Both the position numbers and the translations under genes were made by a program. The notes beneath the pieces were generated by a model, which made no database searches, had not been told where the DNA came from, and saw only the letters and a list, made by a program, of their open reading frames with translations. 64,000 nucleotides of DNA from Phoronis australis (Eukaryota > Animalia > Phoronida), in NCBI GenBank assembly GCA_002633005.1, contig NMRA01000370.1, positions 1 through 64,000 of the forward strand, in the 5' to 3' direction. Below are positions 39,501 to 64,000 of this stretch, piece by piece; positions within the stretch are counted from its first letter, which is position 1, and the number at the start of each line of letters is the position of its first letter.

Positions 39501-42500
39501 TTGAGGGGAATCTTAGACTTAAGTCAGTTTCTTGGAACCGGTCCCCTATCTCGGGCTTCCACGTGCTCAGTTTTAAAAGTACTGTAATCTTCTTTAAGGC
39601 GTTTTAGGATAAGAGAAAAAACAAACAGAAGACGCCTGTCTCCGAATTCCACAACTTACAGGGGATAAATCTGGAGAATAGCATATAAATATCCACTCAT
39701 AGCCCATGTCGTTCTTGCTATCCAGTCTGTAGAGTAGATAGCAGGGCTGTTTCTCCTCCAGCACAGACAACACACAGACATCATAATGTACACTAGAATT
39801 AAGGAATTACTTCAAAGTCCCACATGTTTCAATATTTCATTCATAAAGTCCAATTTCGTCCACTACAGTGAGATGAAAACATTATTGAAGTTCTATTAAG
39901 CACGGCTTTAATGGGTCGCAGATGTCCAGCTTAATACAAAATAAGAATGAAGGTAGAAACAAAAGTCACGCAAGCTTGATTTTACCGGGATTTTCCAGGG
40001 ATATGCCCATGGGTGTGTATTCGGAAAATAAAAACTTTCAGGCGTTTCAATAACACCAGATACACGACTGAGTGTTTATTCGGAAAGGGGGAAGTAAAAA
40101 GTCACGGGCTTGGCTGATATGAAAATATTAGTGATTCTTTTCATAGAACTGTGTGTTTTTTAATTTTAAGTTATCAAATACATAGTTCACCAAAATTTTG
40201 TTCATTTCTATGAAAAATAAATGCTCCGGAAACAGAATTTGTGGCTAGAAGTTGACCCTTAGTAGGGAAATTTTCCAGATAAACGCCCCACTCTCTGGAC
40301 ACTTGACAACGGAAATTGTAATACCAAATGAACGTCCATGGCATTAATTTGCCCATGGGCGATTTACCGGGTGAGCTTATCTACGGAAAATCCCGGTAAC
40401 ATGAGCCAACAAAACGGAGAAAGGAATTCCACACTCAGCACGATGCTGTTTCCAGTTTCACAACAGAAATTTGGGTGCATTTGAGATAAGCACGACATCA
40501 CTGTAACAGGTAATGGGTTGATTGAAAATTTGCCTTATGTATGTATCCAAAGACAGCAACAGAACAGGATAATATGCAACCGTCAATGAAATTGGAGGGA
40601 ACGGAATCGGCAGAAAATGCAGTCGGAGGGGCAAAGCCTCTCTTTTTTAAAGCGACAAACAGAACGAACAATTCTGCGTGCCCCATGGGCACATGTACAG
40701 TCAACTCTGTATCCATTAAGTAATATCACGGCAATGACACAAAAACGGATTCAAATTTGAACTCTGCTACAGTTCAAAACAATAGTAATACGACAAAATA
40801 CCGTTAACAGATAATTCAGTAACTATTACAGGAGTAAAATTATATGTAATTACTAACTGGTTTAGCCACCTCACTAACTTTCTTTTATTTTCTCCTTCAT
40901 TCTGGCTCACGAGACAAAACCACTCTGACCATGAATTTAGCTTCTACCCAGACATCATGACAGTGAATTGCAGGTCATTTTGTTCAAAATCTTTTGACGT
41001 ATACTGTAGATGTATGGGCACTGACACCGTTTTTTACAGTGACTGTGTCAAAATGCCTTCCTAGAAGACTGTCTTAAAAAGGATATCATCCTCCCAGCTG
41101 CCTTGTGCTTCACGGTCCTCACTTAATACTAGAGTCTCTGAAAATGAAACAAACTAGACAGTGCTTCAAATAAGGGTAGCGACTTGAATTTAATATTGGT
41201 GGATTTAACACATACCGTATTCGCCGTAATAACCGCCCAGGGCGCTTAGAAAAGTTCGGTGCAGAGGGGCGCTTATTATAACCCAGGGTGGTTGAAACCC
41301 GGTCTCCGAAACGGGTGAAATCAGAAGCTAAGATTCATCAAATTTACGCTCTGTCACGTACATGTAATCTATGAAAGACTTTCAACAAAACTGTGGTGCA
41401 CTGCTATCAAACTTTACTGCTAACTTACGATCATGTTACAGAAAATTGTGCTGAAATCCCAGGGCGAAAACTTGCCGACTGACTGCCTCGAAATCGCCGT
41501 CTTCAATATGCTTCAATGCTTGAATAAAAATTTTTTCGACTCAAGCAAATTACCTGAAATCCTCATTAAGTTTTATAAGTAGCGTCTCCAATATTTTTAA
41601 GTTCCCCTGGAGTCTGGATTAACGGCAGGTTTAAGTACAAATCTGTGCAACATCGTGCCATCTACATGTATGATTGGCAACACGGCTAGAAATATGTCTG
41701 GACGAACACACATGTTGTTGTCACGTGACGTTTGTTTTGAAGTTCATCTGCGAGTAAGCGAGCGCGTGCGTGTCACCAGATTTCATTTGCCAAGGCAGAG
41801 CCCGTCTTTTGGGCAGAGCCACGCAATCTAACTAGCTAGATGTGTTTAAAGAATTTGCACAAGCGGTAGGCTTAAACCAGAGTGTGTTTCATTCAGCACT
41901 TGCCGGTCTCGTGCTAAAAAATTTCGAATTTGTCTCGGTAAGGCCCATATTAGTCGCCGTGTAGCTGGATGCGTATGTAACTATTACAGTTATTTTTCGG
42001 TGTAAGGGTAAGTGTGTAAGCATTCACTTTCAGTTGTCATTTTATCGGATATTCGGTTTAAAAACACCAATTATGGTTAATCAAACAATCCATCTCAAAA
42101 ATAACGCAAACATGTTTTACAGTATTAGAAATTGTCGGAAATTAGTGCCAATATTCATTTCTTATCGATGCTATGCTACCCGTTTCATGAATGGATAGTT
42201 CCCAACTGTCTTTGATGACAGGTTCATGGATGTAGCGCGCGCTTCCTGGCCACGTGCGTTTAACACCGAGTTATTTTTATTCATGAGACAGTCGATGTGT
42301 ACTGAAAGGTCAGACCATAGTGGGACGCGGTCGTCGTGAGAGCGTAGCAACGCTGTTGCGTTCTTTTTGAAGAGCTGCGTTACTTTGAAGTGTAAAGTCA
42401 TGGCTAAATACAAAGGTAGCAGTGCCGCTGGTGGTCTAGAAGACCCGTGCAAAAAATGTTTGATAAATTGAAGACGTTACTGTAGCCGAGTTTTAGGACT

Positions 42501-46310: not shown

Positions 46311-49300
46311 ATGAGCAGAATGTGCGAAAATGGAGAAACAAAGAGAACGGCGCATGTTATCTCTGAGAAATTGAGAACTTGTGACGTTTCATTGGATAAA
46401 AACGTGAATTTCTCCAATCTTCTCCTTTCTGACACTGTTTTGCAAGGATTGGTGAAGTCGGGCTTCCACACACCTTCTCCTATCCAGTTGAAGGCTATTC
46501 CCTTGGGGAGATGTGGTCTAGGTATTACTCTTGCTGCTACTGTGTAATCTGTGCAAGTGTTACTTTAGTTACACCAGCTCATAGTTAATCCACCAACCTA
46601 CGACATTGACCCAACGCTGCCCTCAGCTTAGTAGGCTCTGCCCGGTGCTACTACTGTAGCTCTACATTAGACAGTACTGTTGCAGCCCAAACTAATGCCT
46701 GTGCCTAAATGATTTTGTGTACTTCAATTTGGCATGAGTCGGTGAGCCGAAATGATGCCTGCGCCAAACCGAAGCTACTGTTAGTTCCCAATTTACTGCC
46801 AGTAATTTATATTTTTTAGCTGTTATCACAACTGAAATTGACGACAATGAGTGCCGGGGTGGTGTGAATAGTTTCTCAGAACACTTCCCCCCATGTGGCT
46901 AATTTATATGACCTGCATACATAAGCACTGATTGTCGTCAATTTTGGGTCTTATAACCGTGAAGAAACTTACAAAATACTGGCAGTAATTTGGGAACTTA
47001 GCTGTAGCTTCAGTTTGGTACAGGCATCAGTTTTGCTCACCAGTCCACACCAAACTGAAGTGCGCATAATCAGTTTGGCGCAGGCATCAGGTTGAGCTGT
47101 AATATCACACTCTCAACTGGCCCCAGTAGAAATGGTCGATGGCCATCCCAAATGGCTGCCGCAAGCGTTTCGGGGAATTATACCTCACTGATTTAACAAT
47201 TAAAGTAATATTGCTATAGGCACCTTTTATGCATAGAGGGACACCTTAGGAGATTATTAATGTCTAACTTTTCCCAGCTCGAACTAATATTCCTGCAATC
47301 AAACTTTTATGTCAAGAAGCATGACGTCATATCTCCTGGCGCGAGCAGTGTAAAAATGGCCAGTTGGCCACTTGGGTCACTGGCAGCCCTATGAGATGGT
47401 CACCGTCTCTACTGCGGCCAGTTGAGAGGGTTGTTCTGTCTACCACCACTCTTGAATGGTGTTGGTAATCTTCGTGGGTGATTTGCCAACCGATTGTTAT
47501 CACCATTTTTGGTGAAGTGGTGTTTGGGTGAGATGTGTTGTTAGGGAATGTTTTTGAATTTGCTGTCAGATTATTTCACTTTAAATGTTGAACTGGTAAA
47601 AAAACAATAAAATTGTGGACAACAGGTGCAGAATTTTCATAGTTCAGAAAATTTTCAATGCCCCATCCAAAACACATTGCTCAATTTAAAATTTCGAATG
47701 TTTGTACCATTTCAGTTCGGTAAGCTGTTTCTATATCCAAGGTCAAAAAGTGTTCGGAAACCAGGTCGACTCGGTTCATTATTAAGTTGAATTATACTCG
47801 TTGAAATTTTTTACTCAGCGGTCGTTATGTCGAACTCAAGATAGAGGGCCGCCTATCAACTTGCCTAACTAATTTTAAATTTAGTTCAAGAAATTTTTAA
47901 TTAGAAGTTTTTTCTTTTTCAGATCTTATCGTTCAGGCCAAGTCAGGTACAGGAAAGACTTGTGTCTTTACAGTGATTGCATTGGAAGGAATTGTGGTAG
48001 AGAGTAAGAGTTTGCAGGTTAGGGCAGCAGTTGTACGACACATACCATTAATGGAGAAGTGTGGCATAACAAATATACCCATCATGCAGTAGTAGTCTGT
48101 TAACTTCTGAGCTATTTGCCTGATAGGGCAGTCAGTTAATATAATGTTTTGGTTGTCACTTTTATATGCTATAGTTGAAACACGTTTTACTCATCCTGTT
48201 TTAGCTTTAGTACTATGATTTTATATTCATCTGCAAAAATCGATTCTTTCTTAGCATTCTAACTTTAATTCCATGAATCGCTTGTTAAAATGTAACGCAA
48301 TTTGACTTTGTTCATTATCAGGTGTTGGTGTTGGCCCCGACACGTGAGATTGCCGTGCAGATTCATGACGTTATACAGTCGATTGGTCAGTGTCTCCCGG
48401 GACTACGTTGTCACACGTTCATTGGTGGACTACCCGTGAGCGAGGACCGACAGAAACTCAAGAAGTGCCACATCGCTGTTGGTTCACCAGGTAGTACTAC
48501 CACGTAGGATTTGGTGTAAAAAAATGATGGCCAATTGCTTTCTGATTATTATTTTATTGACAGCCATTTTGTTAGTCTGATCTTTGTAAAGTCTGCTTTC
48601 TTGCCAGACCTTAACTAAGTGTCGCTTTGTACGAGTTCCTTCTGCGTAATCTTTTGTTGCTCATGTAAAATTGGTCAGCGCTGAGGTTCAAATCTTTTTA
48701 CTGGAAATCGAACTCAAATTTATTTTTGACATTTTACTTCAATACAAAGTCAAGATAAGTGTTGACTTTTCTCTGCTCAGGTTCATCCTGATGAGTGTCT
48801 AGTTCAAGTTTGTCCTTGATGACCCCTAGGCTCAAGTTAAAAATTCACACGAAATCTCGAGGTTTGGTTGAAAAACTCAAAATTTCGAATTCTGACAAAA
48901 AATGTCATAAGTAATTTTGATTTCAAATACAAAGATGGGACCCCAGGCCCCTTGCATCATGAACATGATTTTGGACATTTGGCAACTTGGATGTTTTGGT
49001 AAAATGATACCTTGGCATTATAAAACTTCACTACTAGATAAATTATTTTCGTGTCTCTTTGATGTTTTCGATGAAACCGTTGTATGCAATTTAAATTTTC
49101 TTGTGCTGAAAACCTGGCCACCACATTTGTTATATATTTCATATCAGGTCGTATCAAACAACTCATTGAGGAGAATGCCCTTTCTACAGAGAACGTTCGT
49201 CTGTTCATTCTTGACGAGGCTGATAAACTGCTTGAAGAAGGCTTCCAAGAACAGATCAAGTGAGTGTGTAAGGAGACAATGCAGCTCAGCAGTTTGAACT

Positions 49301-52300
49301 TTGAACTGAGTGTGTAAGGAGACGGTGCGGTTCAGCGGTTTGACCTCCGAACTCTCGTTTGGGAGATCTGGGTTTAAATCCTGGCTTCACTGGCAGACAG
49401 TTGAGCATTGCACATAAGTGTCTCCTTCTCTTTTGAGCTCGGTTTTGCTAGTGAGTTTATGCAAGGTAATGAATGTGCCCATAATTAAATTGTCTGTGAT
49501 AATAGCCTCCGGCTAATGTTCTATGGTTACGCTGAAAACTGACAATAAATAATTTAAATAAAAAATGTTATTGTATTGTCTAGTGTGTGCATGATTACGT
49601 TGAAGCAAGGTTGCACTGTCTTTCAGTGTTCTCCACAACCTGTTTTGACTTGTTACTGGGTCAAGTTTAAATTTTGTCATGAAGACTAAGGCTTACTTGT
49701 GTCAAGTTTGAAAACCTATGCAATGAGTTTGAAGTATTAGGAGATAATCATTTCTTAAGCAAATTAGGAATTTTTTGGATTTTCGGTACTAGTTTGATGC
49801 ATTTATTTCAAAACTCAAACTCCCTGCAGTGTGAACACGGAGTTTCAAACACATACATGAATTTTGTAACTCCAGGCAACTTAATTTTCTGTTGTGTAGA
49901 ACACCGCAGTCTCAGAGGACGGTAATGCATCAGTTATCTAGCGCACAATATGGCCTACAAGTGAAACTGTATTTTATCAAACTTCTTCATTTAAGTAAAA
50001 ATTGGAAAAAATCCAGTTCATTACTGACATGGTGTGTACCGTTTAGATTTCATAAAACAAATTTTGGTAACGTTTCCTTAGTTTCCACGAGTTGCAACCT
50101 GTCCACATTTTGAAGAACAGTGCATTTAATAGTAAAAGTGCATTGAACAGTTGAGTAGCGCAAGATTGTGCCCTCTGTATGAAACCTTGTTATTTTTAAT
50201 TCGTAAGTCGATGAATTTTGATTTGATATTCTGGAGTAAAATGATTAATAGGATAGTAACTTACAATAGACTAACCTCCCGTCCAGGGGGAGACGAAGGG
50301 TTCACCCAGTTGTGCTACAGAAACTGGTTAGCACCTGAACGTATGAGTTACAGGCTTTGTTAAGGATTTACATGCAACCAGAGGTTAAATGTGTGTTCTA
50401 ACGACAATGGTGCAGTTTTGTTGTGACAGCCGCAAACTGCACAGAACCTATCCTCGCCAGGGGTGCACAAAATTCTTGATGGTTGATATTTAAGATGTCC
50501 TCTAGTTTTAATACCACTCTTGAAGGTCACACACTTTCCAGTCTTGTGAGGTCTTTGGCGCGTGATTTCCCCAACAAAATGTGAACTGTGTTAAGCCACA
50601 CGGTGGTAATTTGTCTTATACTCTGTTGCAGTTGGATCTACTCATCGTTGCCTGAAAACAAACAAATGGTGGCGCTGTCAGCGACCTACCCAGAATACCT
50701 TGCTCATCACTTGAAGGTCTACATGAGGAACCCAACATTTGTCCGCCTGAATTCAGTTGACCCCGCACTGCTAGGTAAAATATCACCCAATTTTGGACAA
50801 AAGTAATAGACAAAATTTATGTTTTTCACTATTTTTTGTGAATGCTAGTAATTTCACATATTGTCTTGTCACAGGTAGCGTGTAGAACTTGCAAATGACA
50901 ATGGATCATTAGTTGGAAATGAGGAAACGGGTGTAGCGTCACATTCTTGAAGCCATCGTAGAGTTGGTGTACATTTGAATCATTTTATATGTCTGTTGTG
51001 CTCATTACAAGTTGATTTTATTCTCAGTGGCCTTTGGTTACAAGAAATGTTACAAAGATGTTGCCTTTACTGTTATCAGTTTCGTCATCCTTGCAGGTGT
51101 GAAGCAGTTCTACCAGGTGGTTCGTTTTCATCCCCTGCCACACGTGGCCTTTGAGAACAAGGTGCAACACCTCACCCATCTGTTATCCACCGTCGCCTTT
51201 CACCAGTGCCTCATCTTTTCCAACTATCAGTCCAGGTAATAAGAAACATTCTACGGTATATAGAACTCTAAAGTTTTGAGAGCACAATAGCATCTGTTGA
51301 GCGAAGCATTGTCAAACATTTAATAAATAGCCAAATGGTACACAACTTCATTTTCCTGACTTTTCAACGTTTCGTCTTTTCATTAGACATCATCAAGATC
51401 ATATTTACAATAATTTAGGACTACAAGTGCCAACAATGGTGATGACCAGCTACTGACCATATTCTATGTATCTCTCACTTCGCTCTATGGATGTTACCTG
51501 AGCTGTTTGTTGGCACTTGTTGTCCTAAACTGTTGTAAATGTGATCCTGATGATGTCTAATGAAAAGACGAAACGTTGAATTGAACACGAACTTTTTATT
51601 TGTGCGGCGATAGTCTGGTTTTTGATCTTATTGTGGCCAAAACTGATTTAATTTTCCTGACTTGTTTCGAGGTGCACTTCTCATTCTCAAAGGCACAAGA
51701 ACCAGCATGATGTAAAGGTCAAGGTAACCAGTAAAAGGTCATGCAGGTGTGACACATGATAGCTCAATAACACAAGTTAAACAAGCCGCTACTCCAGACA
51801 ATATCTCAAAACAATGCGAGACCAAGCTGGTCACACAAAGTTATTGTCAAGTGTAGAGGCTTGTTTACCCTCACGTTATTGGCCTGTCATGTCTCACATT
51901 TGCATGATCTTTTGCTTGTTGCCTTGTCCTTTACATCATTCTGGTTCTTGTACCGTTGAGAATGAGGACTGCACCTCAAAACTTGTCAGGAAAATGAACT
52001 TATGTACTACATAGCGTCTTGTGTGCAAGACTGTGTGCAGACGATACACTAGCCATATTCATGTGAGTCGTTTGAATGTCCATAGCGCAAAGGGGTAATT
52101 TGTCGGCATGATGGTGACAAAGAATTAATAAAAAGCTGAAAAATGTCCGACCGCGTTAAATGCAGTCGGAGCGATGTACATCACAGGCTTCCGAATACTT
52201 ATGCCGTTTAATAAGGTAAATTTCCTGAACTATTAGAAGAAATTTCTACTGTAATCTCATCATGAAATACTTGTAAGACTGTTGAGTGTGCAAGTACTGA

Positions 52301-55300
52301 CTCCTGTGTTACGCAAGTTGCAGTAGTGAAGACGTTTGGAATGAATACTAGTTGACGCAAGTCTGGAATAATCTTATTGATGTGTTGGGTCCATGCACTG
52401 CAAAGTTATGTAGTGTGATTGTACAGCAATTAATATTTGTCCTGGGTCGGTTACAATAGTGAATAAGCTTGAGCCCACTCGCCCACAGCCTACGCGTGTA
52501 CACTTGCAAAGGTTCATTCATGAGGGAACAATTCATTGTAAGGCGGTGCCCTCTCACATTCTCTACAGTCTCGCTAACCTGATGTGTTTAGGCATTTGTC
52601 GCCATTTTTGTTTGTGTTCAACTAAGTTATTAAGGCGTGGTGAGCGAAAACTACAACTCTAGTTTTCGGTCAGAAACTATGAATAATTATGTCTAATCTG
52701 TTTTATTTTTTTACAATCACCATTTTGACATTTTCTTTTACTTGACATTAGAATCAACAATCTTGCAAGGTGTGCATAATGTTGGTGCATTTGACCCTGT
52801 GGATAATTGAATTTGACCTTCACTCAGACTGATAGATAGAACTAAATTTCACTGCGCAGCACCTTAAAGAGGTATCTGCATGCTCCTAACTATGCTAATG
52901 TATATAGCAGGAACTAAACGACAATGCTATTCGAACATCATCTACACTAAACTAAGTGTAGTTGTATTCATTGACAACTTGTAAATTTAATGTAAAAACA
53001 AAAAATTCATTCTGCAAATATGTGACCTTTGCACTGACGTACCTTGGGGGCTCACATAACCCGCATCATGCAGTCATATTTACCAACACCACGTCACGAT
53101 ACTTACTGGACACAGTTGAATGACTTACAGCGTATCATTTTTGACACAAAACTCGCTCTTTAAAATATTTGGCAATTTTCAACCTACTTCATATTCATCT
53201 TCGCTATATTTTGTGTTTCTAACTAATTTGACCAAGCAATCATGCAGATATGGGTTCTTGACATTTTGGGTCCCCATTTGGTGTCCGTTATGTCATTTTA
53301 GGGTACAAGAGATGGTTCATTCCCCTTTAAACTATCATTTGTGGATACAACCTGCATAGGTGGACCCCGGAGAGTTGGTACACCTCTGTTTACTTAGGGG
53401 TACCGTAACCAGTCTCAAACATAGCCGCAGCTTGTCTGCTTTTATTTACACATAGTCACATTTTACTCGGAAATACCTGTATTTTTGTAGGTGTACTCAT
53501 TCTTGTAGATGAAAAGCAAAAGTTTACTAGATGAGAATTCAATAATAAACTGTTCTGTGTCTTTCATTTTGTGTCAACCGCACATGTCGTCATGGTTTTG
53601 CAGAGCAGAGTCACTGTCTAACATCCTGAACTCTCGCGGCCTCCCGTCCACCTGCATTGCGGGGAGTCTAGACCAGAAGCAGCGACTGGAAGCCATGAGC
53701 AAGTTACGCAACTTTGAGTGCAGAGTGCTCATCTCAACTGATCTCGTAAGTGGGCCGTTGGAGCTATGCCAAACTCACCAACCAATCATTTCAATGACTC
53801 ATATTGCTGAATTGGGCTAGTCAGCTTCCGAGCATAATTGCAAAACATTAGCCTTGCTTTTGCGTGGTCTTCGGAGACCTTGCTTTTCTTGCAAGAAAAT
53901 TGTTCTACAAAATGCTCTCGGGTATGACTTGTGTTCTCCTGCTGGGCATCCGTTATCAATACTGTGTATGCGTTGAATGCTCTATGTCATTTGGTTGTTT
54001 AAGCAAAATTATGTTCACATGTAGATAGAAATTTCACCGAAAGGTCATTTTATGCAACGAAGTCTCGGAAAACCATTGTTTTTTCATATTTTGTGGTAGA
54101 ACATTGGTTTTATAGCACTGCAAGTTAAGTGTCATTTGGTCCATGGTTTTATGGTGTGTAATTAGGCTTTCACCAATTGCCTTAGTGGGAAGATACACCG
54201 CAGCTAAGTTGATTTATTCCAATTTGATATTACCAATTTCGTTGTGACCTAATGAGCATCGCACGAGTCATTAATTAAGGTTATAACCACATCAGATGCT
54301 TTTGTCCAACAATGTTCTGCGTCTCAACAGGTCGTAACTTGATTACCTTCTAGTGTGTGTAGGAACATTTTTCGCTACTAATTCTCCCAACTTTCTGTCC
54401 CACTATTAGCTTGTATCAAGTTTAGGCTAGTTTTTATAACTATATTAATCTGGCTTAAGTAATTCACTTACTCACTGCATGGTGGCGCCACTCTATACTC
54501 ATGTGTCAACAAGTGATGGGTTGCCAGTGTTTCCCACCATTCTGTGTATTTTAACACTTATTAAAGTAGACGTGAATTGCCTGTTTCTTCAGACGTCCCG
54601 AGGTATTGACGTGGACAAAATCAACCTAGTCATCAACCTGGACTTGCCTAAAGACCACGAAACTTATCTCCACCGAATTGGTCGTGCTGGGAGATTCGGT
54701 AAGACAGATATGATGTTGAATTGCGGATAACAGTGTACTGAATAAATTATTTGTTAATGCCAGTTGTCTTGTATAACAAGATGACTGTCATTATTCTTAA
54801 CTGTGTACCATCTTCATGTCCTTGTTTGTTACTTGCCTTCCCGCCTGCTTTTAATGGTAGCATTCTGTACACTGTGTGAGTTGAGCATTTTTCAATGTGT
54901 TGATAATCTTGTATCTTGATTGGTGGATTGTTGCGAACGTGGATTTGATCCTGCGTCACTGCATTGCAAGGACGTTCGGCGGAGTTTTTCCGTATAGACA
55001 TATTTTTAGGTTTTTGACAAAAATCATCTCTGGTTGGTCATATTTGTGCTTCACAAGTTGGCAGTAGATTAGCCCCATACATTTTGGAACTCTGTGAAAA
55101 TTGCCCAAAGTTTCTTTTAATTTTTTATTTAGTGCATCTGATCCTCTCATTTTCTTGTGTTCAAAATGGAATGGATTAATTTGACCTGTGAATAACTCGC
55201 TGATTGCAAATATTTAGTCGTACCCAATGTAGTTTTATTCAAATTCGCTCTTTTCTGTCAAACATTTTATATTTCTCAGGCTTGCTCACGGCAGTGAAAA

Positions 55301-56247
55301 TCACATCATTGCAGAATCGGTCATACATCAATTAGCCGCTGTTTCACATTTAATTAGAATGGCATGTCAGTTTTGTGTCGGTATGTTGCCAAGTGTTTGA
55401 CTATTGAATTTGGTTGTAAGGTAGACTTTGCTTAATATGCTCAATATTTTGAGTTGTACACATATGACTGCTGTAACGCTCAAGCCCAGGCTTTTTAGTT
55501 TTGGCGGCTATTGATGTCACTGCCATCACGTAACCAAGAGTTAGCATCCAGAATCCCAGATGAAGTTTGGCAAATAGGTGATGGATGGTAAAATGTTCAT
55601 TGAGCAAACATGAAGTTGGTGATCGTTATACCTTCCTTTTACCCTGAAATTTTTGGAGATGTGAGCAATGCTGCCAATTTATTTTCATTCAGAAATGGCC
55701 ATCGTATTCGTTTGTCTTAACACTCATGTTTGTCTGATCACCCATTCTTCGAATTACATTTTCATTTTGGAACAAATGTGTTTCTGTGCTCGGTTATATC
55801 CCGAGCTTTGAGTCGCTTATTCCAACTCCCTATTGCATTAAGGTAAAATCTCAACATTTTCACACAAAAGTAATCTCCAAAAATGTCCGTTTTCGTTTTT
55901 TCGTGACCTCTGTCATTGTTGTGAATGGCACGTAATTTCTGATTGCAGCTGTGGCATAACACTTAAAAATGAAAAGGCATTTATTTGGTGCTACTCGTAG
56001 CTTCTGAGAAAAATAATTTCAATTTTCATCTCTTGTCTGCTGTTTTATGTTATAAATTGGTGTCGTTTTACTGTACATCGAAATGGATGTTGTTTGTTTA
56101 CCTTGTCCGATTTTTTCGTGACCTTTGAACCATTTTTGTTGGCAGGAAGCTACGGCGTGGCCGTAACCTATGTTTGTCGTGGTAACGAAGAATTGGCACT
56201 TAGAACCATGGAGAAGGCGTGTAATACACACATTGACGCATTGCCAG
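46311..56247 (+). CDS. DDX20: DEAD-box RNA helicase DDX20 (Gemin3/DP103), exons 1-9; 3' part not found in the window
   Basis: GT-AG exons 46311-46521, 47923-48017, 48322-48490, 49148-49259, 50632-50774, 51097-51235, 53604-53745, 54593-54698, 56146-56247. Motifs [70 protein letters not shown]. The start could be ATG 46311 or 46320. Confidence 0.95.
46683..47100. mobile_element. Foldback/MITE with ~170-bp imperfect inverted arms in DDX20 intron 1
   Basis: AGTTCCCAATTTACTGCCAGTA...AATTGACGACAATGAGTGC mirrors GCACTGATTGTCGTCAATT...TACTGGCAGTAATTTGGGAACT. Confidence 0.7.
49307..49390 (+). mobile_element. Possible tRNA-derived SINE head relic
   Basis: A-box-like GGTTCAGCGG and B-box-like GGTTTAAATCC with tRNA-like spacing; preceded by a 46-bp diverged duplicate starting at the DDX20 exon 4 donor. 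Confidence 0.35.
50255..50370 (+). mobile_element. SINE central-domain relic (V-SINE-like)
   Basis: GACTAACCTCCCGTCCAGGGGGAG...TGCTACAGAAACTGG resembles the conserved core of invertebrate V-type SINEs, judged from recalled consensus only. Confidence 0.4.
51363..51580. mobile_element. Penelope-like element remnant: 74-bp inverted repeat carrying a minimal hammerhead-ribozyme core
   Basis: Arms 51363-51436 and 51507-51580. The right arm reads CTGATGA-T-GTCT-aatgaaa-AGAC-GAAAC-GTTG, the minimal hammerhead motif typical of Penelope pseudo-LTRs. Confidence 0.65.
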
Positions 56248-57597
56248 GTAAGAAATGAAGTGTTTGTGTGGCGCATTAGTGAGTGTAGTGGGCTCACAAA
56301 TGAAAAGTCGCGAGTTCTGTTCTGGGATATCCGCATCGTATGCATACCGTATTGCAAGAGAGTTATTATATAAAACTTTTCAACTTATTTGAGAATTGAT
56401 TGCTGCATTTCATTGGCTACTGTCAAATTCTTCCACCTTCTGCGTCACCTTGTTGTATGTGTTCTTCTCGAGGTAAATGGATGGAAACTGTGAATTGTGA
56501 ATGGGAGTCAGGTATTACTTTTCACTACTTGCATCAAGATCAACACAGGTCGCCTAGTATTTCATAAGGTTGAAAAAATTCGGCAATGAATCCAGAAGAG
56601 ATTTCGCAAGTGGTTATCTTGATCAATGTCGTCCTGTATGCCATTCGTCAAATTTAAAATAAGAGCAACGTTTGTTATTACGTTGCCAACACAGTTGACA
56701 AGGACAATTCATATGTTTATTTGTATTAAAGGCCTCTGGTGGTCCAAAATACAATAAACAAAAATTAAACAGGCACATTTGCACATGTAGTCAACCCATT
56801 TAAGAGTTGTTCTCTTCTTTTAAGGGCAGAATACAGATGTTTAGTAACAGAATGATATAATTATGTGGATTAGGTAGCAAGCATATACAGGATTCTTGAG
56901 TTGGACAACCTATACATGGAAAACATGTTGGTAACTCATTTTAAAATATCTAAGCATTGTCGCAACTACTATTAATAACTTTTACGGAAGGAGGGATTTT
57001 AGCTGCTTTAAACCAAGAAACCTACAAGTGAAATACCAGGCACCGTGAAAAATTAATTATTGTGCTCAAGGTTGGAGCTTGTCCCATATTCTAGAAATAG
57101 GCAATGTTAGTCGTCCCAAACTCAAGAATCACAGGAAAGAATGCAAAATTAACCACTCTGTACATTTAAAACATATTGTCCGTAATTTAAGAAATATGGT
57201 GAATGACAAAATTGCCTTTGACCCAAATTACTGAATGAAAAATATTCAATTTTTGCAGGGGTCTCCGCATCCCAAATTACAGAGACTGTCCCAAAGTGGT
57301 GAATTTGTACCATGCTTAAACTTTACTATTTTAGGCTAGATTTCAAATTTTTAAAAATTGATTTGTGTATTCAGACTGATAGAAGAGAGTGAAGTAGTAG
57401 ACCTCTTTACTTTGTGTTTGAAACAATGAATTTAGTTGGTTTAAATGGTAATTCTTGACTTATTTCGTACAGATATAATTGTCAAAATTTGTCATTTTGC
57501 TAGGGTTGATTGCCGTCATTTGCCCCCACTGATGATAACATACAGTGCAGACTAAGCTAACAAGAGATTAAAATTTCTCGATAATCTTAATTCTTGT

Positions 57598-58095
57598 TGG
57601 GAAATAATAATAATAAACTTTATTTAAAGAGGATAAAAATACGATAAATGTAAAACACGCTTTACTGTTCCACTGTTTAATGGTCTGAATAAATAAGGAC
57701 TTAGAATAAAACGATGTTCTGTGTCTGGGCAAAACCAAATTGTTTGAGGCAGAAAATCTTGTCCTAATCTGGTGGCTATTTCGAATAAGTACGAGATTAT
57801 GAGATAGATAAGTCGGTACATTACCATGAAAGCACCTATGCATCATACACAGACGCCTATATATAAAATATTTGTCAATAGGGAGCCACCCCAGTCTATT
57901 AGTTATATGAGTTGACTGAGTGTCAAAAGGCACTCCTAGAACAAGTCTGGCCGCCTGCTTTTGAGCCTTCAATAAAGAGGAAACTAATTTTGCATTGCAT
58001 CCTGACCACACTGTACTACAATAAACGAACAGAGGGAATACACAAGCGCTGAAATATTGCAGACGGCCTTCTGTGGGAAGAAATGGTGATATTCA
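57598..58095 (-). mobile_element. 5'-truncated LINE (L2/Crack/CR1 group): ORF2 C-terminus plus (TTA)n tail
   Basis: Translation ISPFLPTEGRLQYFSACVFPLFVYCSTVWSG...QKQAARLVLG...LGWLPI...P.YL...RTR...SL...IKQWNS, followed by AATAAA and TTTATTATTATTATT. Confidence 0.85.
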
Positions 58096-58155: not shown

Positions 58156-61100
58156 TTACTGACTAGAGGAGGTGATGGGGTGATTTCCGCAAACATTTGT
58201 TTTCTGGTCCCTGCGGTCTGACAATGTCTCGCTGATGCTCTCTGGTGTTTTCCAGCCGCCATCTTTGTAACGACTTTGATATGGCCCAGGCCAAACTAGT
58301 GGCACCGATACCTGGCCCAGCCATGGCCTTACTATCAAACGTGAAAAGTTTATGTTGCAATCCACAGTTTCCAAGAAGTCCTTGTCTGCTCTGGCTGTGT
58401 CTACCAAACGTTCACCAATTCTCTCCTCAATTCCTAATATCTCGTGTGGATTTGATGATTCACTGGCTGTAATGGCGTCGATTTCCTCCTGCAGTTTCCT
58501 AAGACGTTCTGTGTGCGTTTCATTGATAGCTTTCATTCTGGAGAGACTTTTCTTTGCTTGTCCGTACTTCTCGTTGAATTCACTGCGTAGCCGTTTACCG
58601 GCCACTGCAACCTTTTTCTCCCACTCGCTGATTGACTGATCGATTTCATGGCGTATTCTAATGGCACTATTTTCTAACACGTTCTCTTTAATGTCTACTA
58701 TTTTCGCTGTAGCTTCACACAATTCCAGCACAGAGTTTACTATATCTAACGAGGATCGGAGTTCAAGTTTTACATCATCTCGGGCTGTATTCAAGCTCTT
58801 ATGCTTGTGGTTGGCATGGCTAATGTCTTTGCAGACTGGACATATCAGTGTCTTGCACTGCATACAATAGTCATCTTGCTGTTGGTAATGTTGTGTACAG
58901 TACAGCGGCCATTTTGGATTGATGTCTGTCTTCACAGCATCTGCAGTGTGACCTTCAAATATATCCTTGAGAGGCACTACCAGGTGATCATTGGTGAATT
59001 TTGTTAAGTTGTGGCATTTTGCACAATTGTCGCATAATAGGTCTCCGCATTGCAAACACTTGCTTTCAGCTATGACTGTTAGTGATTTACCGTGACTGCA
59101 GATGTCGCAGTTGAGATGTCTCCGTGTTTTGGTAACAGCCGATTCAAGCAGGAAATTGATGGGGTAGGTTTGCACACCGCCAATGGGCTTTTTTATGTGA
59201 CAGCAACAGATAGGACATTGAAACTGACCCCAACTTTTTAGTCCATTTCTTGATTGTCTTTTCGATTCATAAAAATGCCTAGCCATTGGACGGATTGTAG
59301 TCTTCTCGGTATGCGGAAATTTTTGGTTATTTTGTTTCGATTTTTTTTGAACAGCAGTAAACCTAAATAGAGAAGGGCTCTTGAGAGAGTCTTTGTGTGG
59401 AAGTAGCATTGCACTTGGCCCAAATGATAAGACTGGCTTTTTGTCTATATTTTCCAAAGTAAACTTGAAACCTTGTTGTGATGGCTCTCGAAGCAATGCT
59501 GGTGTTCCAAATGACAATCCTATTGTTGTTTTTGTTTTTGCATTTTCCTGCTTTGGAGTAGGTGCAAACATTGGTGATGTTCCGAATGACAGTCCTGTTG
59601 TTGCTGCTATTGTTTTTGTGTTTTCCTGCTTTGGACTATGTCTGGACACTGCTGGTGTTTCAAGTGATAATCCAGTTGTTGCTATTGTTTTTGCGTTTTC
59701 CTTCTTTGAAGCTGGTGCAAACTCTACTGATGTTAGAAATGTCAGTGCTGTTGGTTTTGTATTTTCCTGCTTTGGAATAGGTGCAAACATCGGTGCTGTT
59801 CTGAGTGACAATCCGGTTGTTGCAGTTGTTTTTACTTTTCCCTGCTTTGGATCAGGTGCAAGGACGGTTGGTGTTCTGGAATCGACGTCCACGGAGAAAA
59901 GCTTTGTAGCTGCTTCGATTTTCTCTGCCAGGATTTCATTGCGGCTTGGTTGAGGTGAAGAGTCTTTCACACCTGTGTTCTTGGAAGCATCGTTGATACT
60001 ATTGAGCTTCCCTTCCGTCTGTGATTTGTGTGTTTGAATTGGTGTTGGTGTTCCAAATGAAAATCCTCCCACTGCTGTGTTTGTTCCTGTTGTCACATTT
60101 CCCTGGTGTTGGTTATCCAGCAAGGTGTCTGACGAATTTATCATTTTTACATTTCCCTGCTTTATACCAATTTCAAACGCTGTTGGTGTTCCGAATGACA
60201 ATCCTGCTGTTGCTGTTATTTTTGTGTTTCCCTGCTTTGGAGTATGCCCAAATGCTGCTGGTCTTTCCAATGATAATCCTGTTGTTGCTGTTGTTTTTGC
60301 GTTTTCTTGCTTTGGAGCATGTCCAAACGCTGCTGGTGTTTCAAATGATGATCTTGTTGTTTTTATGTTTTCTTGCTCTGGAGTATGTCCAAATGCTGCT
60401 GATGTTACAAATGATAATCCCGTTGTTACTGTTGTTTTTGCTCTTTCCTGCTTTGGAGTGTTTCCAAACATTGCTGGTGTTTTAAATGATAATCCCGTTG
60501 TTACTGTTGTTTTTGGGATTTCCTGCTTTTGAGTATGTCTAAACATTGCTGATATTTCAAATGATGTTCCTATTGTTCTAGAATTTTGCTGCTTTGGTGT
60601 TCTAGAATTGACATCTGCAGAGAAATGTTTTGCTTCTGCTTCCACTTTCTCTGCCAGGATTTTATTGTGGCTTGGTGGAATTGAAGAATCTTTCTTACGT
60701 GCGTTGGAAGTATCGTTGATACTGGTTAGCTTCCCTTCCGTTTGTGGTTTGTGTGTTGGAATTGTTGCTGGTGCTCCTAATGACAATTCTGCCGCTGTTG
60801 TGTTTGTTACTGGTGATATATTTTCCTGCTTTTGGTTTTTCAGCTTATTAGAACTTACTGCTTTATTGTTCCTGTTTGAAATAGATGCAAATGATGGAGG
60901 GATTGCTCCAAATGAGGATCTTGTTGTTGCTGTTGTTGTTGCTAATGGTGTTGTTGTCATTCCTGTTAACTGTGCTTTGGTTGTTTTGTTTTTTTTCCTA
61001 TTGGTTGCTAATGCAAATCCTGGCCGAGTTGTTGTTGCTGTTGCATTGTTTATTGACGTTTTGCTGTCCTCTATTGCCTGTTCTTTCAAACTTTCACTTT

Positions 61101-61458
61101 GTCTGGAAGCAGAGTCGGGTTGTCTGTCTACCAGTGTGGTTGATAAGCTTCCATTTGTCGAGATTTTTTCTTTAAGTTGTTCTATGTTCATAGACATACA
61201 TGGCTTTCTGAACAATCTTGTTTCGTCAGTTTTCTGGCAGATTTTCTTGTTATCCTTGACGTTGTTTGAAGCTGGCTTACTAGATATGGCGATGAGTTCC
61301 GTCAAACAGGTAGTGCAGAACGAGTGAAGGCAGGGCAAAATTCGTGGTTCAGTGAAACGTTGGTGACAAAGTTTGCATGCCAAGATGTCATCGCCAATTT
61401 CTTCAAGCAGTGAACCAAGTTGCTTTCTTTCCATCTTGCTGGTCTGTAAAATCGTCAT
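58156..61458 (-). CDS. TRIM/RBCC protein (RING, B-box1, B-box2, coiled coil) with the RING split by a ~700-aa repeat insert; single 1100-codon ORF
   Basis: C28xxC31...PCLHSFCxxC51 (RING ligands 1-6); FQC748PIC751...GGV..YPINF (ligands 7-8 plus the usual post-RING motif); CDIC...CLQCGDLLCDNC...H...H (B-box1); CTQH...YCMQC..LICPVC....H..H (B-box2); heptad-rich helix. The true start may be M9 (61434), which follows an acceptor-like TTTTACAG. Confidence 0.9.
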   Translation of the reverse strand: MTILQTSKMERKQLGSLLEEIGDDILACKLCHQRFTEPRILPCLHSFCTTCLTELIAISSKPASNNVKDNKKICQKTDETRLFRKPCMSMNIEQLKEKISTNGSLSTTLVDRQPDSASRQSESLKEQAIEDSKTSINNATATTTRPGFALATNRKKNKTTKAQLTGMTTTPLATTTATTRSSFGAIPPSFASISNRNNKAVSSNKLKNQKQENISPVTNTTAAELSLGAPATIPTHKPQTEGKLTSINDTSNARKKDSSIPPSHNKILAEKVEAEAKHFSADVNSRTPKQQNSRTIGTSFEISAMFRHTQKQEIPKTTVTTGLSFKTPAMFGNTPKQERAKTTVTTGLSFVTSAAFGHTPEQENIKTTRSSFETPAAFGHAPKQENAKTTATTGLSLERPAAFGHTPKQGNTKITATAGLSFGTPTAFEIGIKQGNVKMINSSDTLLDNQHQGNVTTGTNTAVGGFSFGTPTPIQTHKSQTEGKLNSINDASKNTGVKDSSPQPSRNEILAEKIEAATKLFSVDVDSRTPTVLAPDPKQGKVKTTATTGLSLRTAPMFAPIPKQENTKPTALTFLTSVEFAPASKKENAKTIATTGLSLETPAVSRHSPKQENTKTIAATTGLSFGTSPMFAPTPKQENAKTKTTIGLSFGTPALLREPSQQGFKFTLENIDKKPVLSFGPSAMLLPHKDSLKSPSLFRFTAVQKKSKQNNQKFPHTEKTTIRPMARHFYESKRQSRNGLKSWGQFQCPICCCHIKKPIGGVQTYPINFLLESAVTKTRRHLNCDICSHGKSLTVIAESKCLQCGDLLCDNCAKCHNLTKFTNDHLVVPLKDIFEGHTADAVKTDINPKWPLYCTQHYQQQDDYCMQCKTLICPVCKDISHANHKHKSLNTARDDVKLELRSSLDIVNSVLELCEATAKIVDIKENVLENSAIRIRHEIDQSISEWEKKVAVAGKRLRSEFNEKYGQAKKSLSRMKAINETHTERLRKLQEEIDAITASESSNPHEILGIEERIGERLVDTARADKDFLETVDCNINFSRLIVRPWLGQVSVPLVWPGPYQSRYKDGGWKTPESISETLSDRRDQKTNVCGNHPITSSSQ
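59480..60570 (-). repeat. Coding tandem repeats (~75 nt / 25 aa) within the TRIM ORF
   Basis: Unit ~TTGLSFGTPAAFGHTPKQENAKTTA; ATGATAATCCCGTTGTTACTGTTGTTTTTG recurs at 60411 and 60486 (75-nt period). Confidence 0.85.
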
Positions 61459-64000
61459 AAAAAGGCTGCGATCTTTTGCACTACAACACCTTTCTTAGGT
61501 TTTTGGGAAAAAAGAACTGATAAAAATGCCTTTTGAAAACATTTTTACAGGCTTTAAAAAAACTGTTCCACAGTATGCGCTTTCATGCAAGACTTATTCC
61601 TTGAGTTTTTGCATAATTAAATTTTTGAGAAAAATTTGCAGCTCACTAATGCAAAATTTGAGAAATTCTCAGCTTCAAAGTAAAGATTTTGGAAAAGAAA
61701 TTTTGGTGAAAATTTCTCAAAAAAGACTTGCATGAACCGGCTCTTTGAGTTAATAACTATAGGAATCAACCTACTGTTTACAAATTGCCCGAGATTTTCA
61801 ATTCACGGGGAAAATTAGTTGAAACTGTCACAAGAACTCCAGTTTCCAACAGCTTTTTCCAAGTTGATAAGAAACTCATAAACAACTATCGGTTACTTTG
61901 CAATGCGAATTCTGTTCTAAGTCTTGTGTTCTATTTGACATTAGTTAAAAACTGCATAGTTTGTTCTGGTCTCTGTTTCTTCTTTTTGAACATTGACTCG
62001 GTGGTGCAATATTTTTAGTTGCTCAATTTTTCAACAAAGAAAATCCGCTTGAGATGAGCAGCTAAAATGACATGGGATTTGTTTTAATCCTTCCAAATGC
62101 TTGGCAAATCGTGATATTTCAAACCTTGTTTACCCGTCCTTACATGCAGATTTTCAAAAAAAAGCATCACAGGTCCTCGGCTGAAATTCATGCGGGCAGG
62201 CATTTTTTATTTCTAGTCGGTGAGCGCAGGTCTCAAAATGAGTCGGGGTACAGTCATACCTCAATCAGCTATGCTATTTTTGGTCTGATCTTGAAATATT
62301 GCGCTTGTTTTTGTAGAACCAAAATTTTCAACTCCCAACAGAAGTAAAATATTTAAATATTAAGTAAATTCTTATACCGGCGTGGAAATTTATATCGCAA
62401 ACATTCTATTCTGTTCCGGTTGGGGCAGAAATCTTTTCAGACTGATATTCATTAGGTCACGTGATGTGCTCACAGGTGGTGTGTTGAGTAGACTTAAATG
62501 TTCGCGATGAAGTAAAATATTGTTTACATGGTTGAACATCCCAAAATTTGCACCCATAGGTTCTGCACTGGGAATAAACGAAGTATGGAGATCTTGGAGT
62601 TATTTCATAATTTTTGAAGTGGCCATCAACCTACTTTCAGTCCAAGAAGCAAGCTTTTCATTTAGACTACTTACCCCTATAAATTTTTTTTCCTATTTTT
62701 ATTTTAAAATACCCCTATAAAACTGGTCTCAACTTGCATGAGAATTGATTTCTAGGTTTGCAAAGATCTAATGGTACGTTATTCCTTGAGGTCATGCTCG
62801 GAGCATAAAATGACAGAGTTTGAAAAACCAAGTCATACTGGGATTTTCCATGGATAAGCCCATGGCCGTGTATTTGGAAAATGAAAATTTTAGGTGTTTT
62901 AGCACTACCAAATAAACGCCCGGGCGTTTCTTCAGAAAAAAGACATACTTTTGCAGACACTGACATTTTGTACTTAAAGCTGTGCTTTTAAATTTTATGT
63001 TAAGAAATGCTTAGTTCGCCAACACCTTGTTCGTTTTTGTAAGTGATAAATGCTCCACAAAACTGATTTTGTGACAAAAAGTGGATGCTGAATTGGTATA
63101 AGAGGAAATTTTACAAATAAACGCCCCACTATCTGTACACTTACACCGGAAGTTGTAAGACCGAATACATTGTTACAAGTGTTGGAAACTTTTGCTAAAC
63201 ATTGCTTTATGACATCTATACAGTACAAATCACATTAATAATAGACTGACATTTTTTGTCAACACCGAAATTTGGCAGAATAGAATTTCATTTGTCGGCC
63301 GTATTGCATTCTGCATATGTGAATTACCATAACTGTGTTTTCATAGTTAGCGTTTCATAGTTTGTGCAAAGCAGGGCCTGGGGTTTACTCTTTTTAAGCA
63401 AAATCAAACTCAAAATTGTTTTTAGAATGTGATACTCTACTTTTGTGCGAACTCAAGATAAGTGTCTATTATTCTATGCTTGAGTATCTAATGGCTTACG
63501 TTGACAACCTGTTAATCCAAGTTTTCACTTGATCACACCGGCTATCAGTTCAAGTCTAAACTCGACATTTTAAAATTTTGCTCAAAATCCCAAAGTCTTT
63601 ACGTGATTTTGTAGCACGAATATATGGTGATCAAGTGCGGACTCATGCATGCATAAAACTGTACTTGAGCACAGGCTAATAGCCACATTTCTTGAACTTG
63701 CACAAAAGTAGAACAGAAAATGCCATGACTAATTTTGAGTTTGATTTTGAGTACAGGGATTTGGCCCTGTGAACCCCCAGATCTCAAGTTGTGAAGGAAT
63801 CAATTTGCTGCCTGCAAATTACTCTTTTATTTCGCCCATTCAAGACTGGATTGCCATTTCCAAGAATTTTTATCTTAATTTGGGATTGTCTCAGCTTATG
63901 AAAGATTCACCAATTTACGCTAACTTATTGAGTAGGAAGCACATTTTGTGCATGTTTGCGTACAACGCCTGTAACACTAATACTAATATTACATACCCAG

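What the first reader, a model, noticed from the sequence alone, without database searches (positions are those of the whole stretch)
59400..60930. The RING insert is built of FG-nucleoporin-like repeats
Seen in sequence: about ten FG dipeptides in SFG/AFG/FSFG contexts (TTGLSFGTP, GGFSFGTP, PAAFGHTP, SSFGA, LSFGPS), with T/A/S/K/Q-rich spacers and a ~25-aa period. Established: FxFG/SFG repeats with such spacers typify Nup62, Nup153, Nup214 and POM121; they bind nuclear transport receptors, phase-separate, and are bound by some viral and retroelement capsids. TRIMs are frequently antiviral. Inference: a nucleoporin mimic or decoy tethered to a ubiquitin ligase could capture FG-binding capsids or karyopherin cargo, or localise the ligase to pores or condensates. 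This function is a hypothesis only.
Basis: partly seen in the sequence, partly recalled or inferred. Interest (0 to 1): 0.75.

Follow-up and report, generated by a model that had tools for sequence, protein, structure and literature searches.

The report
TRIM with giant repeat-filled RING loop
An expressed invertebrate TRIM gene, of a family often used in antiviral defence, has a 696-residue repetitive loop inside its RING finger where relatives have about 15; the loop changes fast and likely serves as its binding surface, but its nucleoporin-like FG motifs are not conserved, so a nuclear-pore decoy role is only a minority possibility.

Summary
The ten FG dipeptides and the 25-residue (75-nt) period are real. 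They lie in loop 2 of the RING of a single-exon, 1092-aa TRIM (61434..58156, minus strand; RING, two B-boxes, coiled coil, no C-terminal domain) in a bilaterian invertebrate. Loop 2 is 696 aa, against 15-16 in 63 of 63 aligned homologs and 139 in human TRIM52. RNA reads cover it on one strand with no splice joint, all 24 zinc ligands are intact, and the two allelic indels keep the frame. The FG reading is weaker than proposed. Most FGs are copies of two slots in one amplified unit. Phe ranks 12th and 14th of 25 columns, and the position after it ranks 20th and 25th. No nucleoporin homology was found. Repeats diverge at dN/dS about 1, allelic changes in the loop are mostly amino-acid-changing (25 of 27, clustered), and the RING linchpin Arg is Cys. 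Best reading: a convergent, far larger TRIM52-like case, with a fast-evolving disordered RING loop as likely recognition surface (0.45). Rivals: tolerated drift (0.27) and a true FG decoy like engineered Trim5-NUP153C (0.2).

The parts
58156..61434 (-). Single-exon TRIM ORF, 1092 aa: split RING, B-box1, B-box2, coiled coil, short tail, no NHL/filamin/SPRY
   Evidence: RNA reads across it
61306..61377 (-). RING first part, zinc ligands 1-6 (C20, C23, C35, H37, C40, C43)
   Evidence: Pfam zf-C3HC4 E 5.7e-6 over aa 20-52; invariant or near-invariant columns in alignment A1
59218..61305 (-). RING loop 2, aa 44-739 (696 aa), predicted disordered, holds all ten FG
   Evidence: Loop is 15-16 aa in 63 of 63 aligned homologs; pLDDT under 50 over nearly all of aa 51-746
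60143..60564 (-). Repeat array A, 75-nt (25-aa) unit, 5.7 copies, 5 FG
59497..59876 (-). Repeat array B, same unit, 5.1 copies, 2 FG
60181..60844 (-). Block duplication copy 1 (about aa 197-418)
   Evidence: blastn self-match to copy 2, 70.5% over 679 columns, E 7e-99
59497..60121 (-). Block duplication copy 2 (about aa 438-646)
59203..59217 (-). RING ligands 7-8 (C740, C743) and linchpin position 744, which is Cys
   Evidence: C740, P741, C743 align with invariant columns; position 744 is R in 51 and K in 9 of 63 homologs
58984..59109 (-). B-box 1 (aa 776-817), 8 of 8 ligands
   Evidence: Pfam ANCHR-like_BBOX E 1.4e-4, below its curated cut-off; ligands listed
58792..58899 (-). B-box 2 (aa 846-881), 8 of 8 ligands
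   Evidence: Pfam zf-B_box E 8.7e-5, just below its cut-off
58315..58794 (-). Coiled coil (aa 881-1040)
   Evidence: Helices with pLDDT mostly 74-95, falling after about aa 1010; best fold matches TRIM5 B-box2/coiled coil, E 2e-3; TRIM28, TRIM72, TRIM3 by sequence
61444..61452 (-). Splice-acceptor-like TTTTACAG 9 nt upstream of the ATG (likely a 5' untranslated exon further up)
   Evidence: Sequence; zero read depth at 61425-61907; no joint seen, so inferred
57568..58092 (-). Interspersed repeat fragment beginning 64 nt behind the stop codon, where a C-terminal domain would lie
   Evidence: Pile-up of diverged reads with loose ends at both borders; LINE-like by recalled motifs only, no Pfam match
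46335..56248 (+). DDX20 exons on the opposite strand; the TRIM likely lies in the next intron
   Evidence: last matched exon ends at 56246 before a GT donor; the long DDX20 tail has no match in the window

Best explanation
This is a transcribed, single-exon TRIM gene with no C-terminal domain, whose RING loop 2 has swollen to 696 residues by tandem amplification of a 25-residue, two-phenylalanine unit, and the fast-changing, predicted-disordered loop likely serves as a many-handed binding surface in place of the missing domain, probably in host defence. Shown: the anatomy, the repeat history, retention of the loop in RNA, intact zinc ligands, no purifying selection on the loop's residues, and no preference for Gly after Phe. 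Inferred: the RING still closes around the loop; the coiled coil dimerises the protein so that about 13 units per chain give avidity; the amino-acid-changing excess reflects an arms race. E3 activity is likely weak because the linchpin is Cys, so trapping or scaffolding is more likely than efficient ubiquitination. It would work like TRIM52's expanded loop 2, arisen independently. The target is not identified.
For: Loop 2 is 696 aa against 15-16 in 63 of 63 homologs. The frame is open over 692 insert codons, the other two same-strand frames hold 36 and 29 stops, and both allelic indels are 3 nt. 24 of 24 zinc ligands are intact although the block copies differ at pS 0.24; neutral survival would be about 2e-3 to 2e-4 for 0.10-0.14 substitutions per site. 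Reads from X2 and X3 cover the loop at mean depth 1.9 and 1.7, against 2.1 and 2.6 for the C-terminal part, with no joints. Allelic changes in the insert: 2 synonymous of 27 against 7.0-7.9 expected, p 0.006-0.014; outside the array cluster 1 of 17, p 0.03-0.05. Among repeat units, 32 of 55 amino-acid-changing variants fall in the 10 columns from the first Phe onward. The two RING halves got weak support for reassembly: score 0.35, best of 3 controls 0.03, 94% contact agreement, pLDDT about 76. That mark was reached by 51 of 78 solved and 2 of 108 mismatched pairs, but at 0.60 or under by only 5 of 78 solved, and it is likely from likeness to solved RINGs. Precedent: TRIM52 lacks a B30.2 domain, has a 139-aa loop 2 under positive selection (PMC3845644) and keeps E3 activity despite the loop (PMC12022042).
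Against: The 27 insert variants fall into only 12 clusters, so the p-values overstate independence; they come from at most 4 samples and 40 of 42 rows. dN/dS is 1.26 among units and 1.05 for the block duplication, and the C-terminal part shows 3 synonymous of 13 against 3.2 expected; all of this also fits neutrality. The clustering near Phe drops to p 0.057 after correcting for the choice of block. Expression is low: 46, 52 and 10 reads in about 19% of three runs. AlphaFold2 did not rebuild the RING across the loop (pLDDT under 50 at aa 506-746). No ortholog with the loop was found. TRIM52's own known roles are DNA repair and a loop-2 degron, not shown antiviral binding.
Confidence: 0.45

Rival explanations
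1. Tolerated drift: loop 2 accepts almost any insertion, slippage inflated it, and only the frame and the zinc ligands are kept. The loop is a passive spacer or a degron in a dispensable, partly decaying TRIM copy, and FG is a by-product of the unit that happened to be amplified.
For: dN/dS about 1 in units, block duplication and C-terminal alleles; linchpin R to C and the next R/K position also C, both one C-to-T step from Arg codons; no C-terminal domain, with a repeat element 64 nt behind the stop; low expression; TRIM52's loop 2 acts as a degron (PMC6536530, PMC12022042).
Against: Synonymous deficit in insert alleles, with 16 of 27 changes at codon position 2; third positions change least among units (22 steps against 39 and 30); chance of no stop after 100-250 random changes is 8e-3 to 5e-6.
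Confidence: 0.27
2. FG decoy: the loop mimics a nucleoporin FG domain and traps FG-reading capsids of viruses or LTR retrotransposons, or karyopherins, on a dimeric TRIM scaffold. It would be a natural counterpart of engineered Trim5-NUP153C, and variation beside Phe would tune specificity.
For: FG is the most enriched dipeptide. Outlying copies keep Gly at slot 1 (LG at 219-220, FG460), hinting at an FG ancestor. Trim5-NUP153C restricted HIV-1 5-10-fold and single motifs dominated restriction of each virus (PMC3795039). FG-like domains with few or no FG motifs still bind transport receptors or form gels (PMC3553378). The Atlas's nearest cluster was a nucleoporin FG region, score 0.76, which is a lead below its noise level. 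The loop passes a loose 5-per-200-aa criterion with 6.
Against: Gly follows Phe in 3 of 10 and 4 of 10 units, ranks 25 and 20 of 25; Phe ranks 14 and 12; K, Q, G, L, S and T spacer columns rank higher. One allele changes F317 to L. 0 hits at E 0.001 among 1.84 billion representatives, no nucleoporin in PDB sequences, no nucleoporin Pfam family at E 10, no usable Atlas hit for array A. 44 of 66 ordinary TRIM homologs also pass the loose FG criterion. 19% charged residues, net +22, resembles the non-cohesive kind of FG spacer.
Confidence: 0.2
3. The insert is an intron or an assembly artefact, and the protein made has an ordinary RING.
For: A donor-like GTAAGC lies near aa 52, close to where homologs' loop begins. 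Read depth is too low to exclude a minor spliced form.
Against: 2.1 kb stop-free in the RING's frame (about 1e-18 by base composition); no acceptor-like site found in the insert and no phase-matched AG near C740; reads from X2 and X3 and five contigs of X1 lie on the loop, with no joint or boundary loose end.
Confidence: 0.03

Closest known systems
Human TRIM52 (and TRIM41): TRIMs with an expanded RING loop 2
   Same: Low-complexity expansion between zinc ligands 6 and 7; no C-terminal recognition domain; amino-acid change concentrated in the loop (PMC3845644, PMC6536530; passages read).
   Different: 696 aa against 139; basic and T/S/K/F-rich rather than acidic; built of tandem units; keeps two B-boxes and a coiled coil; linchpin Cys where TRIM52 has R187; no homology sought or seen, so the likeness is convergent.
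Invertebrate TRIM56-like/TRIM71-like RBCC-NHL proteins
   Same: Source of the scaffold: best hits are 66 such proteins (best E 1.9e-20, Porites; 22-50% identity over short stretches); zinc-ligand spacing matches.
   Different: They have a 15-16 aa loop 2, an Arg or Lys linchpin and NHL repeats (NHL Pfam on 65 of 66 rows); this protein has none of the three.
Engineered Trim5-NUP153C fusion (PMC3795039)
   Same: TRIM scaffold plus a disordered Phe-motif region; shows that the combination can restrict a capsid (passages read).
   Different: Artificial; the FG domain replaces SPRY at the C-terminus and holds 29 FG in about 580 aa. Here the region is inside the RING, holds 10 FG in about 500 aa, and Gly is not conserved.
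FG and FG-like domains of Nup214, Nup153, Nup62/58/54, Nup98
   Same: Disorder, T/S/A richness, spaced Phe, SFG and AFG contexts; density (1 per 52 aa) lies between canonical domains and Nup214's FG-like domains (1 per about 125).
   Different: No detectable homology; Gly only 6%; one FxFG, no GLFG; 19% charged; no pore anchor domain; near-regular DNA-level tandem repeats.

Membership tests
TRIM/RBCC family | RING with 8 zinc ligands | tested here: met
   8 of 8 ligands present and aligned to conserved columns, split by 696 aa; reassembly only weakly supported, not rebuilt
TRIM/RBCC family | One or two B-boxes followed by a coiled coil | tested here: met
TRIM/RBCC family | Active RING E3 (cationic linchpin, ubiquitin transfer) | tested here: inconclusive
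   Linchpin is Cys against R or K in 60 of 63 homologs; non-Arg linchpins range from minor loss to no activity (PMC12326332, abstract passage); activity not testable
TRIM-NHL class | C-terminal NHL repeats | tested here: not met
   No NHL in the ORF or in downstream frames of 55 aa or more
TRIM52-like expanded-loop TRIM (works-like category) | Loop 2 far above 4-48 aa and no C-terminal domain | tested here: met
   696 aa; range from PMC3845644
TRIM52-like expanded-loop TRIM (works-like category) | Positive selection in loop 2 | tested here: inconclusive
   Allelic synonymous deficit p 0.006-0.05 but 12 clusters; paralogous dN/dS 1.05-1.26; no orthologs
FG nucleoporin domain | Sequence homology to a nucleoporin | tested here: not met
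   no pile-up of reads from a second locus at 80% likeness. Low-complexity homology is hard to detect and the host's own nucleoporins were not available
FG nucleoporin domain | Canonical FG density | tested here: not met
   1.9 per 100 aa, 4.1 in array A, against 43 in 549 aa for Nup98 and 29 in about 580 aa for NUP153C; passes only the loose 5-per-200 rule that 44 of 66 ordinary TRIMs also pass
FG nucleoporin domain | FG motifs better conserved than spacers (criterion from the finding; recalled as general for nucleoporins) | tested here: not met
   Across 10 paralogous units Phe ranks 12 and 14, next residue 20 and 25 of 25; orthologs not available
FG nucleoporin domain | Intrinsic disorder | tested here: met
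   Predicted only: pLDDT under 50, with no alignment depth in the loop
FG nucleoporin domain | Binding of transport receptors, phase separation, pore localisation | not testable with these tools
   Needs pull-down, gel or imaging assays

The most novel reading that the evidence does not exclude
A natural FG-decoy restriction factor: an invertebrate TRIM captured or invented a nucleoporin-type Phe repeat, amplified it inside its RING, and uses it to trap FG-reading viral or retrotransposon capsids before they reach the pore, diversifying the residues beside each Phe as the capsids escape. It would be nature's version of the laboratory Trim5-NUP153C fusion.
Probability: 0.15. Interest if true: 0.85.

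Novelty: new variant of a known kind. Interest (0 to 1): 0.5.

Why it matters
A RING finger split by 696 residues is five times the largest human case (TRIM52, 139 aa) and gives a direct test of how far the RING fold and E3 activity tolerate loop-2 insertion. It suggests that losing the C-terminal domain and growing a fast-evolving RING loop has happened independently in mammals and in an invertebrate, as a recurring route to new TRIM specificity. If the loop binds FG-reading capsids or karyopherins, it would show that hosts evolve nucleoporin decoys, so far found here only as an engineered construct.

Tried and rejected
No whole genome is held, so the insert could not be compared with the host's nucleoporins or paralogs. 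Ortholog searches: 66 TRIM hits, none covering more than 27% of the query; C-terminal part alone, 0 of 1167 candidates; insert alone, 0 hits. The insert's DNA occurs nowhere else in the window. Atlas 0.76 nucleoporin hit treated as a lead only; array A gave nothing. The repeat-unit profile against PDB gave two chance Ig-like matches at E 1 and 1.3. DUF968 at E 0.04-0.1 rejected as noise. A single-sequence fold of the last 107 aa of the loop and RING end was uninformative (pLDDT 45). An alternative coding frame as cause of the position-2 excess was rejected: every other frame has stops. No RNA holder was listed by the index itself; expression rests on the laid reads. Earlier-findings look-ups returned nothing. 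Literature searches for a natural TRIM with an FG-type RING loop: 0 papers with 4 of 5 terms, 2 unrelated, 3 unrelated; searches listed no such protein by title or abstract start. The library lacks most subscription journals. No supplements were read; the tables of FG-domain composition in PMC3553378 were not seen and may bear on the density comparison.

Full report
Anatomy. The finding lies in one stop-free frame on the minus strand, 61434..58156, 1092 aa, preceded by a splice-acceptor-like site 9 nt upstream of the ATG. Pfam finds a RING start (E 5.7e-6, aa 20-52) and B-boxes. In an alignment with 63 of the 66 homologs (P0001, P0004 and P0010 left out for duplicated or extended architecture), C740-P741-x-C743 falls on the columns of RING ligands 7 and 8. 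Loop 2 is therefore 696 aa, against 15 in 60 and 16 in 3 homologs. All 24 zinc ligands of RING, B-box1 and B-box2 are present. AlphaFold2 gives a confident B-box and coiled-coil part and disorder over aa 51-746; fold and sequence matches are to TRIM5, TRIM28, TRIM72 and TRIM3. There is no NHL, filamin or SPRY domain, whereas 65 of the 66 homolog rows carry NHL. The linchpin position is Cys; homologs have Arg (51 of 63) or Lys (9 of 63).

Setting. DDX20 exons run on the plus strand from 46335 to 56246 and end at a GT donor; the several-hundred-residue DDX20 tail has no match in the window. The TRIM therefore likely sits antisense in a DDX20 intron (inferred). Best DDX20 matches are bivalves and amphioxus at 74-83%, so the host is a bilaterian invertebrate without a close relative among the listed hits. 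An interspersed repeat starts 64 nt behind the stop.

Observation. Ten FG are present against 1.7 expected, with 75-nt arrays of 5.7 and 5.1 copies. The loop's history is visible in DNA: a 25-codon unit with two Phe slots was amplified, and a block of about 215 codons was duplicated (70.5% identity). Thirteen copies of the unit core pass a shuffle threshold. Eight FGs belong to such copies, one to a borderline copy and one to none, so the enrichment reflects about two ancestral slots rather than ten events.

Is it coding? The insert has 0 stops in frame and 36 and 29 in the other same-strand frames. Two 2026 RNA runs lay 46 and 52 reads on the ORF and a third lays 10 (C-terminal part only), nearly all on one strand. 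Under the usual dUTP convention that is the gene's sense strand; the library type is not on record. Depth on the loop is 1.9 and 1.7, against 2.1 and 2.6 on the C-terminal part. Depth is zero at 61425-61907 and 57400-57560 in all four runs, which argues against DNA or DDX20 pre-mRNA. No joint appears. Both allelic indels are 3 nt. The intron or artefact reading is rejected, though a minor spliced form cannot be excluded at this depth.

Is FG what is selected? Across 10 full units the best-kept columns are spacer K, G, L, K, Q, S, T and T. Phe ranks 12 and 14 of 25; the residue after Phe ranks 20 (Gly in 4 of 10) and 25 (Gly in 3 of 10). The first Phe slot is always Phe or Leu, so a hydrophobic sticker may be kept, but Leu is also the commonest single-step change from Phe. 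Pooled dN/dS among units is 1.26 and for the block duplication 1.05.

Is it a captured nucleoporin? The insert has no hit at E 0.001 among 1.84 billion representatives, none in PDB sequences, no nucleoporin Pfam family, and the unit profile finds only chance matches. At 80% likeness only 1 of 108 raw reads is under 90% alike and no pile-up appears, so no close donor or paralog is expressed in the fifth of each run that was read. The Atlas's nearest cluster is a nucleoporin FG region at 0.76, below its own noise level. The unit core recalls Nup58/Nup62-type repeats (recalled, untested). An old, eroded capture stays possible (about 0.25) because low-complexity homology decays fast and the host's nucleoporins were unavailable. 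FG density is 1.9 per 100 aa, against 43 in 549 aa for Nup98 (PMC8311347, passages) and 29 in about 580 aa for NUP153C (PMC3795039, passages). The loose rule of 5 FG per 200 aa is passed with 6, but 44 of 66 ordinary TRIM homologs pass it too. In the other direction, FG-like domains with one motif per about 125 residues, or none, still form gels or bind transport receptors (PMC3553378, passages), so low density does not exclude binding.

Selection. Of 40 listed allelic differences (42 in all), 35 change the amino acid and none makes a stop; a dN/dS of 0.3 is rejected (p 7e-7). Conditioning on mutation type, the insert has 2 synonymous of 27 against 7.0-7.9 expected (p 0.006-0.014), or 1 of 17 outside the array cluster (p 0.03-0.05); the C-terminal part is neutral-like, 3 of 13 against 3.2. 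The 27 sites form 12 clusters, so this suggests diversifying selection without proving it. Among units, amino-acid-changing variants concentrate from the first Phe onward (32 of 55; p 0.005 post hoc, 0.057 corrected). The frame and zinc ligands have meanwhile survived divergence that would usually have broken them.

Mechanism. Shown: an expressed TRIM with a giant, repeat-built, fast-changing loop 2 and no C-terminal domain. Inferred: the RING still closes (weak support, 0.35 against best control 0.03, likely from likeness to solved RINGs; not rebuilt); the coiled coil dimerises the chains (established for TRIMs, recalled); the loop then offers about 26 Phe-bearing units as a low-affinity, high-avidity surface. 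E3 output is probably reduced, since Arg is the most effective linchpin (PMC12326332, passages and section 6). I put this at 0.45, tolerated drift or degron at 0.27, a true FG decoy at 0.2 and an intron at 0.03.

Comparison. The closest known case is TRIM52: no B30.2 domain, loop 2 of 139 aa, positive selection in the loop, proposed as its specificity determinant (PMC3845644, passages); the loop is also a degron and the RING stays active (PMC6536530, PMC12022042, passages). The present protein works like that architecture but is not a TRIM52 ortholog. Searches for a natural TRIM with such a loop found nothing (open-access library only).

Verdict. Real feature; new variant of a known kind; interest 0.5. 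The striking part is the size and dynamics of the RING loop; the nucleoporin mimicry is an unproven minority reading worth one cheap pull-down.

Noticed in passing
window 46335-56248 (+) and beyond 64000: DDX20 exons stop at a donor at 56248 and its tail is absent from the window, so the TRIM likely sits antisense in a DDX20 intron.
   Followed up: partly
window 57568-58092 (-): Interspersed repeat, LINE reverse-transcriptase C-terminus-like by recalled motifs, 64 nt behind the TRIM stop; it may have cut off or replaced an NHL region and may supply the poly(A) signal.
   Followed up: partly
window 59200-59205 (-): The two residues after RING ligand 8 are Cys-Cys where homologs mostly have Arg-Arg; both codons are one C-to-T step from Arg codons.
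   Followed up: partly
window 58546-58692 (-): Eight amino-acid-changing allelic differences cluster in coiled-coil residues 915-963, mostly from one X1 contig.
   Followed up: no
window 60470-60506: Eight linked allelic differences within one repeat unit, suggesting conversion or unequal crossover between units; no single window copy explains them.
   Followed up: partly
window 33059-39806 (-): Three exon-sized frames with cofilin/ADF matches, likely a twinfilin-type gene (name inferred).
   Followed up: no
window 22324-24343 (+): Three exon-sized frames matching DUF1151.
   Followed up: no
window about 3230-4230: Assembly gap of about 1 kb of N.
   Followed up: no
window 59410-59440 (-): The motif PVLSFG at the loop's end equals the start of the first NHL blade in many of the coral-type homologs (alignment); probably coincidence, but it shows that TRIM-NHL proteins carry FG of their own.
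   Followed up: no
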